Source: Bdellovibrionales bacterium
Lineage (GTDB): Bacteria; Pseudomonadota; Alphaproteobacteria; UBA9219
Direction of reading: 5' to 3'
NCBI GenBank assembly: GCA_041662785.1
Contig: JBAZRW010000003.1
Coordinates: forward strand, 142,531-206,530
Length of the DNA stretch: 64,000 nt
Shown here: one piece after another, positions 22,812 through 44,117 of the stretch
Position numbering within the stretch: position 1 is the stretch's first letter
How the letters are laid out: the number at the start of each line of letters is the position of its first letter
Notes under the pieces: model-generated
What the model saw: the letters and a program-made list of their open reading frames with translations, nothing else
What the model was told of the DNA's origin: nothing
Databases searched by the model: none
Program-made: the position numbers and the translations under genes

Positions 22812-22885
22812 TGGAGCGGGTGAAGGGAATCGAACCCTCATAGCCAGCTTGGAAGGCTGGTGCTTTACCACTAAGCTACACCCGC
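22812..22885 (-). tRNA. tRNA-Gly (anticodon TCC)
   Basis: Reverse complement GCGGGTGTAGCTTAGTGGTAAAGCACCAGCCTTCCAAGCTGGCTATGAGGGTTCGATTCCCTTCACCCGCTCCA folds as a cloverleaf with anticodon-loop UCC. Confidence 0.85.
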
Positions 22886-22935
22886 TCATGGGTGGTTGTT
22901 CTGTATCATGCCGTTTTTACGGCGGCAAGCCGCCG

Positions 22936-23040
22936 TGGGTGAAGGGAATGATCAAAAACAGGCGGAACGCGCCTGTTTTTGCCCCTTCGGGCGCCCCCGC
23001 TTCGCGGGATGCGTCCAAAATGCTTTCGCATTTTGTCGAT
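22936..23040. repeat. 105-bp segment B between 100-bp direct repeats: tRNA-Gly 3'-end fragment + GATCAAAAAC + palindromes
   Basis: TGGGTGAAGGGAAT (matches the tRNA-Gly 3' part) - GATCAAAAAC - CAGGCG/CGCCTG hairpin - TTTTTGCCC - cccgcTTCGgcggg and aaatgcTTTCgcattt hairpins. Confidence 0.6.
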
Positions 23041-23090
23041 CCTCATAGCCAGCTTGGAAGGCTGGTGCTTTACCACTAAGCTACACCCGC
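23041..23090 (-). pseudogene. truncated duplicate of tRNA-Gly (positions 1-50 only)
   Basis: 50 nt identical to the 5' half of the tRNA at 22836-22885, followed by an identical 50-bp upstream region (23091-23140 = 22886-22935); the T-arm and acceptor 3' strand are missing. Confidence 0.8.
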
Positions 23091-23152
23091 TCATGGGTGG
23101 TTGTTCTGTATCATGCCGTTTTTACGGCGGCAAGCCGCCGTTAATTCCTGCC

Positions 23153-41826: not shown

Positions 41827-41934
41827 TGTGAATCACCTGATTGACCATTGGCGCGAATACATATAAATCTAAAAAGAGCAAATGCCTATCAAAATGCCCG
41901 ATTCTGGGACTTCCGCGATAACTGGAGAGAAAAC

Positions 41935-42684
41935 ATGAACAAGACTCGTACCTTTGCCTTCTTGTCTTCACTGCTTCTTGGTTTTTCACTTTCATTTTCG
42001 GCTCTTGCAGCGACGCCACCCGCCAAGCCGGAAAACGTCATGAAGATTCTGAAAGAGAATAAAGACCTTAGCAAATTTGCCGATCTTGTGGAAAAAGCGG
42101 GCCTTGAAAGCGAACTCACCAGCAAAGATGCGCGGCTTACCATTTTCGCGCCTAATAACGCTGCGATGGATAAGCTTTCGTCTGATGTTCTGGATCGTGC
42201 CAAAGAAACCAAGGACGGTCTTAAAAACCTTGTTCATTATCATATGATCAACGGCAGCGTCGTGTTTGCTACGAATATCAAGGGCCGCCGCGCTTCGCCT
42301 AGCTCGGCCAGCGGCGAGATGATTGGTTTTGACGGCATGGGCAAAACACTCAAGGTTGGCGAGGCGACCATTACGACTGAAGATTTAGGTTCTAATAATG
42401 GCGTTGTTCAGGTTATCAGCGCTGTGCTTGTTCCTGACTCGCTCAAAGATCCCAAGATTAAAGAAGCTCAAAAGGAAAAAGAAGAAGCTGCGATGAAGAA
42501 AGAGATGGAGGAACGCGAAAAGGAGACCGCCAAGAAAATGGAAAGTTCGGCTCCCGCTGCCGTTGCTCCTGTGAAAGGGGAAACGCCAGCTACTGCCCCT
42601 AGCGTTGCTGGATCCGCGCCCGTGGCCGCTCCTGCCCCCAAAGAGGAAAAGAAAAGTTTCCTGAAGGGCTTGTTCGGACGTTAA
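41935..42684 (+). CDS. secreted fasciclin (FAS1) domain protein with Lys/Glu-rich and Pro/Ala-rich C-terminus
   Basis: Signal peptide then a FAS1 core (TIFAPNNAAM...NGVVQVISAVLVP). Start trimmed to the ATG after GGAGAG. Confidence 0.7.
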   Translation: MNKTRTFAFLSSLLLGFSLSFSALAATPPAKPENVMKILKENKDLSKFADLVEKAGLESELTSKDARLTIFAPNNAAMDKLSSDVLDRAKETKDGLKNLVHYHMINGSVVFATNIKGRRASPSSASGEMIGFDGMGKTLKVGEATITTEDLGSNNGVVQVISAVLVPDSLKDPKIKEAQKEKEEAAMKKEMEEREKETAKKMESSAPAAVAPVKGETPATAPSVAGSAPVAAPAPKEEKKSFLKGLFGR

Positions 42685-42705: not shown

Positions 42706-42735
42706 AAAAAGCGGGGCTTATGCCCCGCTTTTTGT
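42706..42735 (+). terminator. rho-independent terminator after the fasciclin gene
   Basis: GCGGGGC-ttat-GCCCCGC followed by TTTTTG. Confidence 0.7.
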
Positions 42736-42737
42736 TT

Positions 42738-42787
42738 GGTCGGAGAGAGAGGATTGATCAAAAACGCTCGCTTCTCGCGTTTTTGCC
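42738..42787. repeat. 19-nt direct copy of the tRNA-Pro 3' end + GATCAAAAAC + palindrome + TTTTTGCCC
   Basis: TGGTCGGAGAGAGAGGATT is identical to 42941-42959. The junction motif is the same as next to tRNA-Gly at 22936-22984. Confidence 0.75.
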
Positions 42788-42940
42788 CGTCAAGCGGCGC
42801 CTCGTCAGCCTCCGTTCTTTCAGAACTACGGCGTGACTGCGGCGTCCAAAACCGCCTTCGCAGTTTTGTCGAACCTCCTTCTTCGGTTCGAAATGCTAAT
42901 CTTTGACCATTAAAAAAGCCCCCCTATGGGGCTTTTTTAA

Positions 42941-43017
42941 TGGTCGGAGAGAGAGGATTCGAACCTCCGGCCCCTGCCTCCCGAAGGCAGTGCTCTACCG
43001 GGCTGAGCTACTCTCCG
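42941..43017 (-). tRNA. tRNA-Pro (anticodon CGG)
   Basis: Reverse complement CGGAGAGTAGCTCAGCCCGGTAGAGCACTGCCTTCGGGAGGCAGGGGCCGGAGGTTCGAATCCTCTCTCTCCGACCA; terminator hairpin immediately downstream (42912-42938). Confidence 0.85.
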
Positions 43018-43067: not shown

Positions 43068-44117
43068 GTGCAACGGTTCTTAAGCTCTATCGCGCCCGTA
43101 AAGCAAGAGCGCATGAAACCATTAACTATAATGATATGTTTCCTTATTCCTATGGTGTTGTTAAAAGCAGTCAAAGATCAACACGAGGAGCATATTCATA
43201 TGGGTAAAAACAAGAAAGTCAGCCCGAAAGCGATTGCCAAGCTTAAAGAGCAAGGAGAAATTTTAGGCGCATTTGTCGACAACGCCCATGCTCTTTTAAG
43301 TAAAGTGGCGAAGACGAAGGATTTTGCCGCGCTTAAAAAAATTATCCCCATCCTAAGCCAAGCCATTAGGGCAAGCGGTCAAATGGGCGCGTTTAAAGAG
43401 CTCCCTTCTGCCCTAAACCAAAGGGGCTTCATCCATGAATCATTGGCTTTAGATAATGCGTACATCAGCACGCTCCCGCGTGACAGCGCCCTTTGGAGTG
43501 GGATTGTTTTGCGCTACGCGACGGGCGCTGTAAATCTACTGCCAAAGGGTGAAAGCCCTCTTCCTTATCTTTTTAGCATAGCCCCTTATCTTAGACGAAG
43601 TGCGTTGTTATCTCAAACAAAACCTCTCGTGGCTCAATGCTTTTTGCAGGCGGCGCGTCAGGCGACAGAAAATGGTCGCGTTTGTATGGAAGAAGTCGCG
43701 CATAGGTTATATAGGGGGGACACGAAGAGACAGAACAGAATGGCAAGAAGGTTGGCGTGCGACACGATCAAATTTGCCGCTGATAATTCTGTTGCCTATA
43801 AGGCTTATCATGTGTCCTTATCGTCTGTTGTGAACGAAAGAAAAAAACTACGTGATGCCATGAAAACAAAGGAGCAATTGGGCCTTGTTTGTTCTGGTCG
43901 CGAAAAACGCCGAGAGAATCTCTTGCTGGATATTCAGAAAAAAGCGGGCGAAGATTTGATGAGGCGCATGGCCAAGGATCCCGCCGTCCACACGGAACAT
44001 CACTCTGTCCTTATCGCTGATGATGTCTCACGCGACATTCCCATCTTGCGGAAACGATTCAATCAGATGATGAATAAAATACAGCAATATGATGTCCAAG
44101 ACTTAGACTGGGGTTAA
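43068..44117 (+). CDS. hypothetical protein (349 aa), lower-GC, next to the tRNA-Pro repeat
   Basis: Long ORF with a hydrophobic N-terminal segment and no recognisable domain. Start uncertain (alternative ATGs at 43113, 43200). Confidence 0.4.
   Translation: MQRFLSSIAPVKQERMKPLTIMICFLIPMVLLKAVKDQHEEHIHMGKNKKVSPKAIAKLKEQGEILGAFVDNAHALLSKVAKTKDFAALKKIIPILSQAIRASGQMGAFKELPSALNQRGFIHESLALDNAYISTLPRDSALWSGIVLRYATGAVNLLPKGESPLPYLFSIAPYLRRSALLSQTKPLVAQCFLQAARQATENGRVCMEEVAHRLYRGDTKRQNRMARRLACDTIKFAADNSVAYKAYHVSLSSVVNERKKLRDAMKTKEQLGLVCSGREKRRENLLLDIQKKAGEDLMRRMAKDPAVHTEHHSVLIADDVSRDIPILRKRFNQMMNKIQQYDVQDLDWG

What the first reader, a model, noticed from the sequence alone, without database searches (positions are those of the whole stretch)
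42738..43017. tRNA-Pro is followed 185 bp downstream by a 19-nt direct copy of its own 3' end joined to the same GATCAAAAAC-palindrome-TTTTTGCCC motif seen at tRNA-Gly
TGGTCGGAGAGAGAGGATT at 42738-42756 equals the tRNA-Pro 3' end at 42941-42959. It is followed by GATCAAAAAC, a palindrome (AAAAACGC...GCGTTTTT) and TTTTTGCCC. At tRNA-Gly the fragment TGGGTGAAGGGAAT is followed by GATCAAAAAC, a palindrome and TTTTTGCCC in the same order. Two different tRNAs carrying 3'-end direct repeats with an identical junction motif is the classic signature of site-specific integration into tRNA genes (attL/attR). The conserved GATC-palindrome may be an element terminus or recombinase site. Next to it lies a 349-aa low-GC orphan gene (43068-44117) and then a family-A MITE, consistent with a small degraded genomic islet.
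Basis: partly seen in the sequence, partly recalled or inferred. Interest (0 to 1): 0.65.

Follow-up and report, generated by a model that had tools for sequence, protein, structure and literature searches.

The report
Tiny mobile element inside tRNA-gene copies
The repeat next to tRNA-Pro marks a roughly 115-bp non-coding, hairpin-rich mobile element that, in Micavibrio-like predatory bacteria, always sits at one exact spot in the T-loop of spare tRNA-gene fragments while the working tRNA stays intact; this kind of tRNA homing did not turn up in four full-text literature searches.

Summary
TGGTCGGAGAGAGAGGATT occurs at 42737-42755 and at the tRNA-Pro(CGG) 3' end (42941-42959). The GATCAAAAAC-palindrome-GTTTTTGCCC motif occurs exactly twice in the window.

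The motif is the left end of an 87-114 bp four-hairpin element, "E" (42756-42869 and 22950-23036). E is inserted without target duplication between T-loop positions 58 and 59 of a dispensable tRNA fragment.
- At Pro the host is a 28-nt T-arm-to-CCA fragment. It lies behind a palindromic terminator and an inverted tRNA-end-like arm.
- At Gly the host is a 119-bp tandem partial copy of the gene.

Pattern scans found about 40 distinct E copies, only in Micavibrio-like alphaproteobacterial MAGs and metagenome contigs. They involve at least 12 tRNA species and always have the same orientation. Stacked insertions (E-E, E'-E) and unrelated cargo occur at the same T-loop position. Copies at different tRNA types reach 90% identity.

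No recombinase gene is linked. The 349-aa orphan is a conserved lineage gene, not island cargo.

The "tRNA-targeted mobile DNA" reading is right. The "degraded islet with attL/attR" reading is not. The mobilising enzyme and the origin of the host fragments remain unresolved.

The parts
42706..42733 (.). T2: palindromic terminator-like hairpin (AAAAAGCGGGGC-TTAT-GCCCCGCTTTTT) between the fasciclin gene stop (42684) and the displaced tRNA fragment
   Evidence: Read directly from the sequence. Forms the 3'-most hairpin in the fold.
42737..42755 (-). Displaced 19-nt copy of tRNA-Pro positions 58-76 (AATCCTCTCTCTCCGACCA on the minus strand)
   Evidence: Exact duplicate of 42941-42959. Chance expectation 0.02.
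42756..42869 (.). Element E, Pro copy (114 bp): GATC, hairpin H1 (AAAAAC..GTTTTT), GCCC, central GC-rich hairpins, GTCC, hairpin H4 (CAAAAC..GTTTTG), T
   Evidence: nhmmer hit of 50.7 bits to the family profile. Fold z-score of -9.5 for the 246-nt region containing it.
42870..42878 (-). The other T-loop half plus the T-stem 5' strand (CGAACCTCC). Joined to 42737-42755 it restores the last 28 nt of tRNA-Pro exactly.
   Evidence: Compared with 42960-42968 of the real gene.
42879..42909 (+). 6-nt loop (TTCTTC) plus an inverted, diverged tRNA-3'-end-like arm (GGTTCGAAATGCTAATCTTTGACCA). Its GGTTCGA pairs with 42869-42875.
   Evidence: The same ACCTCCTTCTTCGGTTCGAA string occurs in an unrelated MAG, L059.
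42910..42940 (.). T1: palindromic terminator (TTAAAAAAGCCCC..GGGGCTTTTTTAA). The palindrome runs on into GACCA/TGGTC, i.e. into the tRNA 3' end.
   Evidence: Inverted repeat 42905-42945. The same AAAGCCCCC-N4-GGGGGCTTT type is seen in most canonical units elsewhere.
42941..43017 (-). Intact tRNA-Pro(CGG)
   Evidence: ARAGORN. Rfam tRNA 65.3 bits.
22812..22885 (-). Intact tRNA-Gly(TCC)
   Evidence: ARAGORN. Rfam 75.9 bits.
22886..22936 (-). Upstream region of tRNA-Gly, first copy of the tandem duplication
   Evidence: 22836-22936 = 23041-23141, 101/101 identical.
22937..22949 (-). 13-nt fragment of tRNA-Gly (positions ~58-70, GGGTGAAGGGAAT). It lacks the last 6 nt of the gene.
   Evidence: Equals 22818-22830.
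22950..23036 (.). Element E, Gly copy (87 bp)
   Evidence: nhmmer 62.1 bits. 98-99% identical to the copies at the same locus in Micavibrio sp. IMS_BF.
23037..23141 (-). Remainder of the split pseudo-tRNA-Gly (T-loop CGA, 5' two-thirds of the gene) plus the second copy of the 51-bp upstream region
   Evidence: Borderline Rfam tRNA hit of 29.1 bits at 23021-23090.

Best explanation
The GATC-palindrome motif is the end of a small (85-117 bp), non-coding, non-autonomous mobile element, here called E.

Structure of E. It consists of four hairpins. The two terminal hairpins are A-run/GC-stem/T-run palindromes.

Insertion site. E inserts in one fixed orientation and without target-site duplication at one phosphodiester of the tRNA T-loop. 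In the tRNA sense this is GGTTCG(A)|(A)ATCC, between positions 58 and 59.

Why only fragments carry it. An insertion into a working single-copy tRNA gene would be lethal. The copies that persist therefore sit in dispensable tRNA-gene fragments.
- At tRNA-Pro the host is a 28-nt T-arm-to-CCA fragment downstream of the gene. It lies behind a ~70-bp module made of palindromic terminator T1 and an inverted tRNA-end-like arm.
- At tRNA-Gly the host is a 119-bp tandem partial duplicate upstream of the gene.

Shown versus inferred.
- Shown: the anatomy, the exact and orientation-specific T-loop position, the family's distribution, stacked insertions, and near-identical copies at different tRNA types.
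- Inferred: E is moved in trans by an enzyme encoded elsewhere that recognises the T-arm. The hairpin ends, the lack of duplication, the fixed orientation and the re-use of a half-site point to a single-strand/hairpin-specific (HUH, IS200/IS605- or RAYT-like) enzyme or a site-specific recombinase. The host fragments are inferred either to pre-exist, left by other tRNA-end events, or to be generated when the tRNA is repaired after insertion.
For: Anatomy in the window. At Pro the joined flanks restore the tRNA T-arm exactly, 28/28. The first L054 copy does the same.

Family:
- An exact 20-nt end pattern found 97 stretches in 185,579 species genomes. About 20 of these are true E copies, all in Micavibrio-like alphaproteobacterial MAGs.
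- The same pattern found 112 stretches in metagenomes, 18 of them true by an automated flank test (19 matches; a few more partial or variant copies by profile search).
- It found none in IMG/VR.
- A profile search gives 40 distinct copies.

Flanks: about 32 of 40 abut a tRNA 3' fragment ending ..G(A/G)(A/T)T. 35 of 36 are followed by CGA(A)C or TGAAC plus a T-stem strand. Orientation is invariant.

Hosts: Pro-CGG, Gly-TCC, Gly-CCC, Ser-TGA/GGA/CGA, Thr-CGT, Glu-TTC/CTC, Leu-TAG, Met-CAT and Arg-CCG.

Evidence that E is an independent insert:
- It splits near-full-length pseudo-tRNAs that have no T1 or inverted arm: Gly in the window, L054, L097 and L184; Thr in L031; Ser in L029.
- E-E tandem (L184) and E'-E stacks (L021, L118, L171, L201) occur at the same position.
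- A different 86-nt cargo sits at the same T-loop position in L031, and another in L174.
- E copies at different tRNA types are up to 90-91% identical (Glu vs Gly, Ser vs Arg) while their flanks are tRNA-specific. The two copies in the window are only about 60% alike.
- In L098 the flank has decayed (13/19) while E is 87% identical to a copy elsewhere.

Hairpins are kept through many different stem sequences, with 511 Watson-Crick and only 3 G-T pairs. This points to a DNA-level or both-strand constraint.

No linked protein gene.
Against: - No mobilising enzyme was identified and no autonomous copy was found.
- No empty/filled pair of alleles was obtained for any E site. Synteny next to tRNA-Pro and tRNA-Gly breaks in the relatives that could be fetched.
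- Every terminator-plus-inverted-arm module seen carries a cargo in its T-loop. This fits a composite unit that moves as a whole at least as well as survivorship does.
- T1 is of one conserved type across loci, so it looks like part of a family rather than local DNA.
- The distances from element end to hairpin foot (about 4 nt and 1 nt) are unlike characterised IS200/IS605 ends.
- In TTCAA-type T-loops the flank next to E reads AATT instead of the local sequence. That is more like a recombinase crossover than a clean cut-and-paste.
- All copies were found with an exact 20-nt pattern, so the sample is biased towards intact ends.
Confidence: 0.5

Rival explanations
1. Composite mini integrative element. 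The whole ~180-205 bp repeat-bounded unit is the mobile entity: a new tRNA 3' end, terminator T1, inverted arm, T-arm half and E. It would be an attP-only, CIME-like passenger of tRNA-specific tyrosine integrases encoded by islands elsewhere in the genome. It would integrate into the T-loop-to-CCA segment, give the tRNA a replacement 3' end and push the old 3' end downstream. E would be its conserved core carrying recombinase or accessory-protein binding palindromes.
For: - A 19-nt direct repeat of the tRNA 3' end with an intact tRNA regenerated.
- Whole units occur in tandem (L084 x2, L221 x2, L054 x2; successive units in L174), as expected for integrase accretion.
- T1 is of one conserved type and the inverted arm carries a recurrent T(C/T)TTCA motif across loci.
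- All such modules seen carry a cargo.
- Junction bases differ from the local tRNA in TTCAA-loop hosts.
- Related tRNA-end mini-repeats without E exist in relatives (L223, 4 x 88 bp with a 25-nt tRNA repeat).
- M. aeruginosavorus carries several lambda-type integrases on tRNA-flanked islands (PMC3189940).
Against: - E is flanked by both halves of the T-loop with no shared overlap sequence, which a crossover junction does not produce.
- E also occurs without T1 or the arm, inside long pseudo-tRNAs.
- E-E and E'-E stacks and foreign cargo occupy the same position.
- E copies 90% identical sit at different tRNA types whose unit-borne tRNA parts differ. A composite unit would have to re-tailor its tRNA-specific parts at each jump.
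- No integrase is linked.
Confidence: 0.25
2. Non-mobile functional module. E, with or without the tRNA-like arms, would be a selected small-RNA gene or a bidirectional terminator/insulator cassette linked to tRNA genes, inherited vertically and duplicated locally.
For: - Hairpins are conserved through compensatory changes.
- Terminal hairpins look like bidirectional intrinsic terminators.
- Some hairpin loops are conserved (TCGTTCCTC, TCCT..GTC).
- The Gly arrangement is shared by several species, and the two 101-bp copies in the window are still 100% identical.
- The two copies in the window are not each other's closest relatives.
Against: - No Rfam family matches.
- Almost no G-U pairs (3 of 514), unlike one-strand structured RNAs.
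- No promoter-like site was found.
- Position inside a T-loop of at least 12 different tRNA species, stacked copies, and 90% identity between copies at unrelated tRNAs all require movement.
Confidence: 0.12
3. One reading: remnants (attL/attR) of a classical tRNA-integrated genomic islet that included the 349-aa orphan gene and the neighbouring MITE.
For: - A direct repeat of the tRNA 3' end.
- The orphan has no Pfam domain and only two relatives in 5.8 billion proteins.
Against: - The orphan lies 5' of the tRNA, outside the repeats.
- It is conserved at 61% identity in the same tRNA-Pro/polyprenyl-synthase context in a relative that lacks the REP repeat.
- The repeat-bounded segment is 204 bp and non-coding.
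- The same ~200-bp architecture recurs in about 25 unrelated loci, which random island decay would not give.
- There is no integrase among 40 of the window's ~52 larger ORFs scanned with Pfam.
Confidence: 0.03
4. Replication error only: a tandem-inversion duplication or template switch at the terminator and T-arm quasi-palindromes made the direct-inverted-direct triplet of tRNA ends, with no mobile element involved.
For: - The direct/inverted/direct order of three tRNA-end copies has palindromic junctions at T1 and at TCGAACC..GGTTCGA.
- The palindrome runs a variable 3-11 nt into the tRNA end.
Against: - It does not account for E itself, for its conserved sequence across genomes, or for T1 differing from T2.
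- The middle copy matches the local tRNA in only 3 of 12 variable positions at Pro while the outer copies are 19/19.
- The predicted single shared T-loop at the second junction is not what is seen.
Confidence: 0.07

Closest known systems
tRNA-gene-integrating genomic islands/prophages and their integrase-less derivatives (CIMEs); T-loop sublocation class of Williams 2002 (cited via PMC9897764; Ms6 T-loop attB, PMC1762012)
   Same: Homes to tRNA genes. Leaves a direct repeat of the tRNA 3' segment running from the T-loop to CCA. The working tRNA stays intact. Tandem accretion of units occurs.
   Different: The unit is about 200 bp and non-coding. The conserved element is bracketed by both halves of the T-loop with no overlap sequence. 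One element family serves at least 12 different tRNA species. No integrase is linked.
REP/REPIN-RAYT systems and IS200/IS605-derived palindrome-associated elements (own knowledge; REP families in Micavibrio: PMC3733652)
   Same: Short, non-coding and multi-copy. Terminal tetranucleotide-tagged hairpins (GATC+hairpin, TCGA+hairpin). No inverted terminal repeats in the DDE sense. No target duplication. Fixed orientation relative to a short target. New copies insert next to resident ones. The presumed enzyme is encoded elsewhere.
   Different: The two end hairpins are not copies of each other. The end-to-hairpin distances are much shorter than in IS608 or ISDra2. The target is a specific position inside a structured RNA gene. 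No RAYT or TnpA gene was identified.
Dada DNA transposons of eukaryotes, which insert at fixed positions in tRNA and snRNA genes (PMC3706591)
   Same: DNA elements with strict sequence-specific insertion inside small-RNA genes. They survive because redundant gene copies exist.
   Different: Dada elements are eukaryotic, protein-coding, have terminal inverted repeats and target duplications, and exploit multicopy gene families. Here the bacterium has single-copy tRNAs and only fragments are hit.
CTX-phi-type IMEX elements and integron attC sites (own knowledge)
   Same: Imperfect palindromes that can fold, in single-stranded form, into a mimic of the duplex target. Integration restores a functional target site. 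Tandem arrays form next to a fixed site.
   Different: No dif or attI site, no XerCD or IntI evidence, and a different sequence. This is an analogy only and was not tested.
Rickettsia palindromic elements and other MITEs found inside genes (own knowledge; mentioned in PMC3733652)
   Same: Short palindromic repeats in alphaproteobacteria that can sit inside genes, including RNA-related ones.
   Different: RPEs insert at many unrelated sites and in frame in proteins. E is confined to one nucleotide position of the tRNA T-loop.

Membership tests
tRNA-integrating island / CIME (tyrosine integrase) | Direct repeats made of the tRNA 3' segment at both ends, with an intact tRNA at one end | tested here: met
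   19/19 repeat at 42737-42755 and 42941-42959 with an intact tRNA-Pro. The same holds in L084, L086, L129, L185 and L192.
tRNA-integrating island / CIME (tyrosine integrase) | An integrase gene inside the element (island), or element ends that are plain att sites sharing an overlap sequence (CIME) | tested here: not met
   The segment is 204 bp and non-coding. No integrase among 40 of the window's ~52 larger ORFs (Pfam) or near other copies. The two E junctions read ..GGATT|GATC.. and ..TTTTGT|CGAACC.., with no common overlap.
tRNA-integrating island / CIME (tyrosine integrase) | Excision/integration polymorphism (empty site in relatives) | tested here: inconclusive
   Relatives fetched through the fasciclin, NusG and orphan genes have rearranged loci or contigs that end in the tRNA.
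MITE (deletion derivative of a DDE transposon) | Terminal inverted repeats | tested here: inconclusive
   The ends GATCAAAAAC and TCGACAAAAC (reverse complement of the right end) share only the CAAAA(A)C run, which is part of each end's own hairpin.
MITE (deletion derivative of a DDE transposon) | Target-site duplication of fixed length | tested here: not met
   The flanks join to the uninterrupted T-arm. At most one ambiguous A/T is present.
MITE (deletion derivative of a DDE transposon) | Small, non-coding, multi-copy, found in several genomes | tested here: met
   40 distinct copies of 85-117 bp in about 20 MAGs or contigs.
IS200/IS605-type or REPIN-type single-strand hairpin elements | Subterminal hairpins, no duplication, orientation-specific insertion next to a short conserved target, tandem re-insertion | tested here: met
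   H1 and H4 hairpins are kept with 511 Watson-Crick and 3 G-T pairs. The position after GGTTCG(A) and the orientation are invariant. E-E and E'-E stacks occur.
IS200/IS605-type or REPIN-type single-strand hairpin elements | A Y1 HUH transposase (TnpA or RAYT) in the same genome; guide/cleavage-site geometry | not testable with these tools
   Only 64 kb of the genome is available. No such gene was seen in it. The end-to-hairpin spacing (4 nt and 1 nt) differs from IS608, as recalled from the literature.
   All true matches to the motif are parts of E. All but about 3 of 40 have T-loop flanks. The other pattern hits, about 170, are unrelated chance matches in coding DNA.
Known RNA families (Rfam 15) | A match at or above the gathering score | tested here: not met
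   Only tRNAs were found in the window region and in 16 E-bearing loci.

The most novel reading that the evidence does not exclude
E and the terminator-plus-inverted-arm module together form a new class of self-repairing, tRNA-homing micro-elements. On this reading a non-coding hairpin element integrates, as folded single-stranded DNA or guided by its own tRNA-like arm, exactly at position 58/59 of the T-loop of any tRNA gene. The integration reaction itself rebuilds a working tRNA 3' end and terminator. A roughly 200-bp parasite could then use essential single-copy tRNA genes as safe harbours without any gene of its own.
Probability: 0.22. Interest if true: 0.82.

Novelty: new variant of a known kind. 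Interest (0 to 1): 0.62.

Why it matters
tRNA genes are the classic landing sites for large islands and phages, which bring their own integrase and a spare tRNA end. Here the same niche is used by a ~100-bp non-coding element family with single-nucleotide precision inside the T-loop, across at least a dozen tRNA species, in a lineage whose type genome was described as free of mobile elements.

If the mechanism is worked out, it could reveal a recombinase or HUH enzyme that reads the universally conserved T-arm. Such an enzyme would be a natural tool for insertion at a site present in every genome.

It could also explain how tRNA-end fragments and tandem mini-repeats arise.

On the practical side, these elements create tRNA pseudo-fragments and assembly breaks that confuse annotation.

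Tried and rejected
- **Rfam** on the window region and on 16 loci found only tRNAs.
- **IMG/VR scans** with both end patterns gave only chance hits. There is no evidence that E is a phage or island end.
- **Shared neighbouring proteins.** All-against-all BLAST of ORFs around 16 loci found no shared family. Pfam on 40 of the window's ~52 larger ORFs found housekeeping genes only.
- **Empty-site search.**
  - Fasciclin homologues: synteny breaks and no tRNA-Pro follows.
  - NusG homologues: the tRNA-Gly locus is rearranged or carries other repeats.
  - Orphan homologue: the contig ends inside the tRNA.
  - Exact-protein look-ups failed for several window ORFs because of start-codon choice.
- **Promoter/terminator scanner** was uninformative because the A/T runs are counted into the stems.
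- **Strand test by folding energy** was ambiguous. The tRNA-sense strand folds about 3.9 kcal/mol better, but the G-U pairs lie on the other strand. It was replaced by the Watson-Crick versus wobble count.
- **tRNA-primed reverse transcription.** The 18/19-nt boundary at A58 resembles a retroviral primer-binding site. This was rejected because the other T-loop half lies at the far end of E and no reverse transcriptase was seen.
- **IS91-type insertion after GTTC.** Rejected because the junction is one to two bases further on and the target would be on the wrong side of the element.
- **Serine or tyrosine recombinase crossover with a shared overlap.** The two junctions share at most one base.
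- **Casposon or Cas1-like long target duplication.** This would explain a 28-bp duplication around the T1/arm module but not E, and was not testable.
- **Literature searches** found no description of a prokaryotic T-loop-specific insertion element. The library does not cover subscription journals.
Full report
**1. The observation**

ARAGORN and Rfam place tRNA-Pro(CGG) on the minus strand at 42941-43017. The 19-mer TGGTCGGAGAGAGAGGATT occurs at 42941-42959, which is tRNA positions 58-76, and again at 42737-42755. With up to three mismatches there are no other matches, and 0.02 are expected by chance. GATCAAAAAC occurs exactly only at 42756 and 22950. Both sites continue with an AAAAAC…GTTTTT palindrome and GCCC.

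**2.

Aligning the two sites shows that the far end of the shared segment is conserved too: GCGTCCAAAA, a hairpin, then TTTTGT. This defines a discrete element, which I call E, at 42756-42869 (114 bp) and 22950-23036 (87 bp).

E lies inside a T-loop.
- At Pro the left flank is …GGATT and the right flank is CGAACCTCC. Joined, they give the last 28 nt of tRNA-Pro exactly.
- At Gly the left flank is 13 nt of tRNA-Gly (22937-22949 = 22818-22830). The right flank is the rest of the gene plus 51 bp of upstream DNA (23041-23141 = 22836-22936, 101/101 identical).

So the Gly site is a 119-bp tandem partial copy of the gene split by E. It is not a 3'-end repeat.

At Pro, the split 28-nt fragment is followed by a 6-nt loop and an inverted, diverged tRNA-3'-end-like arm (42885-42909). 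Next comes a palindromic terminator, T1 (42910-42940), whose symmetry runs into GACCA/TGGTC. The intact gene follows. The whole 246-nt stretch folds far better than shuffles (z = -9.5).

**3. The organism**

The fasciclin protein beside the site and the orphan protein are both 100% identical to NCBI proteins of a MAG labelled 'Bdellovibrionales bacterium', on a 207,865-bp contig. The closest species representative is Micavibrio sp. IMS_BF. Its tRNA-Gly locus (L054) carries two E-split pseudo-copies in tandem. The window is otherwise housekeeping DNA: rpoBC, ATP synthase, nuo, purine and tryptophan genes. No integrase, transposase or reverse transcriptase was found among the 40 of ~52 larger ORFs scanned with Pfam.

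**4. The family**

Scanning one genome for each of 185,579 species with the exact left-end pattern gave 97 stretches. About 20 of them are true E copies, and all lie in Micavibrio-like alphaproteobacterial MAGs. NCBI labels these Micavibrio, Bdellovibrionales, Rhodospirillaceae, Rhodospirillales, Alphaproteobacteria, and in one case Rickettsiaceae. The rest are chance hits in coding DNA.

The same pattern in JGI metagenomes gave 112 stretches. An automated flank test flagged 18 of them as true; a profile search added a few partial or variant copies. IMG/VR gave none. A profile search over everything fetched finds 40 distinct copies and almost no degenerate extras.

The flanks are consistent.
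- About 32 of 40 copies directly abut a tRNA 3' fragment.
- Four more abut a companion 85-nt insert (E') that is itself preceded by a tRNA fragment in three of the four.
- One abuts another E.
- 35 of 36 are followed by CGA(A)C or TGAAC plus T-stem bases.

The orientation relative to the tRNA never varies.

Host tRNAs include Pro-CGG, Gly-TCC, Gly-CCC, Ser-TGA/GGA/CGA, Thr-CGT, Glu-TTC/CTC, Leu-TAG, Met-CAT and Arg-CCG. The motif is not a terminator variant scattered over non-tRNA sites.

**5. Two architectures recur**

- 'Canonical', about 25 loci including Pro here. In the tRNA sense the order is: intact tRNA, T1, inverted tRNA-end-like arm, short loop, T-stem 5' strand plus TTCGA, E, then positions 58/59-76 of the tRNA. 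T1 is mostly AAAGCCCCC-N4-GGGGGCTTT, with its palindrome extending 3-11 nt into the tRNA end.
- 'Upstream'. A near-complete pseudo-tRNA split by E lies just upstream of the real gene. Examples are Gly-TCC in the window, L054, L097, L112 and L184; Thr in L031; and Ser in L029.

Whole units can be tandemly repeated (L084, L221, L054).

Some units have only 6-14 nt of tRNA-like sequence on the gene side. In L092 this is followed by a HigB-like toxin ORF. In L096 the matching tRNA-Glu lies 3.6 kb away. Both suggest that larger elements later entered the same tRNA. This last point is inference.

**6. Is E an insert of its own or just part of a larger unit?**

For an independent insert:
- The upstream-type sites have no T1 or arm.
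- E-E (L184) and E'-E stacks sit at the same phosphodiester.
- Unrelated cargo sits at the same T-loop position inside canonical-type modules: an 86-nt insert downstream of tRNA-Thr in L031, and another in L174.
- E copies at different tRNA types reach 90-91% identity (Glu vs Gly, Ser vs Arg) while their flanks are tRNA-specific.
- The two copies in this window are only about 60% alike. Their closest relatives are the orthologous Gly copies in IMS_BF (98-99%) and a copy in MAG UBA8914 (85%).

For a composite unit:
- Every T1/arm module I saw carries a cargo.
- Every perfect CCA…TGG palindrome (arms of at least 13 bp) in about 1.7 Mb of fetched DNA lies next to an E.
- T1 and the arm have family-like conserved features.
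- Whole units duplicate.
- In TTCAA-type T-loops the junction reads AATT rather than the local bases.

I rank the independent-insert reading first (0.5) and the composite integrative unit second (0.25). They are not exclusive.

**7. Mechanistic clues**

The stems of the two terminal hairpins vary widely in sequence but stay complementary. Across 32 copies there are 511 Watson-Crick pairs and 3 G-T pairs (compensatory pairs also). Structured RNAs read from one strand normally tolerate G-U. Strict Watson-Crick pairing points to a constraint at the DNA level or on both strands, such as hairpins or cruciforms bound by a protein, or bidirectional terminators.

The following features together resemble single-strand hairpin elements (IS200/IS605 derivatives, REPINs) more than DDE-type MITEs or integrase att sites:
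- tagged hairpin ends (GATC+hairpin, TCGA+hairpin);
- no target duplication;
- fixed orientation;
- re-use of a half-site.

However, the end-to-hairpin spacing differs from characterised members, and no enzyme was identified. This is therefore a statement about what E works like, not a membership claim.

The survival of E only in spare fragments is most simply explained by lethality of hits in single-copy tRNA genes. This is inferred. Whether the spare fragments pre-exist or are made during repair is open. Relatives do carry E-free tRNA-end mini-repeats. L223 has four 88-bp units each starting with 25 nt of tRNA-Gly, and L167 has a ~210-bp duplication at tRNA-His. tRNA-end fragments therefore arise in this clade without E.

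**8.

The 349-aa ORF is annotated as 305 aa and has no Pfam domain. It lies 5' of tRNA-Pro, outside the repeats. A 61%-identical homologue sits in the same tRNA-Pro / orphan / polyprenyl-synthase context in a relative (L229). There the orphan gene is followed directly by the polyprenyl-synthase gene, so the repeat at 44.15-44.3 kb is absent.

That repeat belongs to a CGTC-tagged REP family with at least 8 sites in the window. It fits the REP family reported for M. aeruginosavorus (PMC3733652). Neither feature belongs to the tRNA-Pro unit.

**9. Comparison with what is known, and novelty**

The closest known systems are:
- tRNA-integrating islands and their integrase-less derivatives;
- REPIN or IS200/IS605-type hairpin elements;
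- eukaryotic Dada transposons, which target fixed positions in tRNA genes (PMC3706591);
- by analogy only, CTX-type folded attP sites.

None combines a ~100-bp non-coding body, single-nucleotide T-loop specificity across many tRNA species, no duplication, and exclusive residence in tRNA fragments. Four full-text searches found no description of such an element in prokaryotes. The M. aeruginosavorus genome paper reports no mobile elements at all (PMC3189940). The literature held here is incomplete, so I rate this as a new variant of a known kind rather than categorically new.

**10. Limits**

- All copies were found with an exact 20-nt pattern.
- Only 8-14 kb around each hit and 64 kb of the source genome could be read.
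- No empty site and no enzyme were found.
- Expression was not tested.

Noticed in passing
It fits the CGTC REP family reported for Micavibrio aeruginosavorus. The copy after the orphan gene is absent in relative L229, which gives an empty site for that repeat.
   Followed up: partly
L223 1450-1890 and L224 1-75: In a relative (NusG 92% identical), tRNA-Gly(TCC) is followed by four tandem 88-bp units. Each begins with 25 nt of the tRNA 3' end with an uninterrupted T-loop. No E is present.
   Followed up: partly
L031 1850-2060: Downstream of tRNA-Thr(CGT) there is a terminator, an inverted arm and a T-arm half, as in the canonical unit. The insert at the T-loop position is an unrelated 86-nt sequence (CAACCGAGCC…GCGACACC). 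The same tRNA also has an E-split pseudo-copy upstream.
   Followed up: partly
L031 1445-1615: A different MITE with ~30-bp terminal inverted repeats (TATAGCCTATGTCAGGTAAAATGATC…) is nested inside the E copy.
   Followed up: no
L021, L118/L122, L171/L213, L201 (about 85 nt left of E): A companion insert, E' (GTGCTCGC…GCTAAGCTCTTTGT), has two internal CTTACGGC…GCTAAGCT sub-repeats. It lies between the tRNA fragment and E in five loci. Its right end (…TTTGT) resembles E's right end.
   Followed up: partly
L167 6780-7090: tRNA-His(GTG) has a ~210-bp direct duplication covering the T-arm to CCA plus 50 nt downstream. It includes an inverted tRNA-end-like piece (TGGTGGTAAAAAACGAACCCAC) but no E.
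   Followed up: no
L059 ~1580-1650 and L096 ~1680-1720: Two MAGs share a 33-nt sequence after T1 (TGGCGTGCCGGACAGGATG[A/G]ATC[T/G]GGGCACTGG). It could fold as a mini acceptor/T-arm helix ending in GCCA. It is not a tRNA by ARAGORN or Rfam, and its nature is unknown.
   Followed up: no
L092/L170, right of the unit: Only 11 nt of tRNA-like sequence follow T1. Then comes an ORF starting MKIRSFTHKGLKRLYEG…, which resembles HigB-type toxins (from memory, not scanned). This suggests a larger island entered the same tRNA later.
   Followed up: no
L001 1-25 and L229 1-50: Short-read contigs of the source organism and of a relative end inside E hairpin H1 and inside the tRNA-Pro body just past the T-arm, respectively. 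Assembly breaks there are expected if these sequences are repeated in the genome.
   Followed up: no
window 41848-42684 versus L099, L102, L103: The genes downstream of the fasciclin gene differ in every relative fetched, and none of them has tRNA-Pro there. A synteny breakpoint therefore coincides with the tRNA-Pro 3' end and E unit.
   Followed up: partly
L184 2158-2332: The two tandem E copies are identical over their first ~66 nt but have different, internally complementary H4 hairpins (CAAAACGCC/GGCGTTT vs CAAATTGC/GCAATTTG). This suggests modular exchange of the end hairpin.
   Followed up: no
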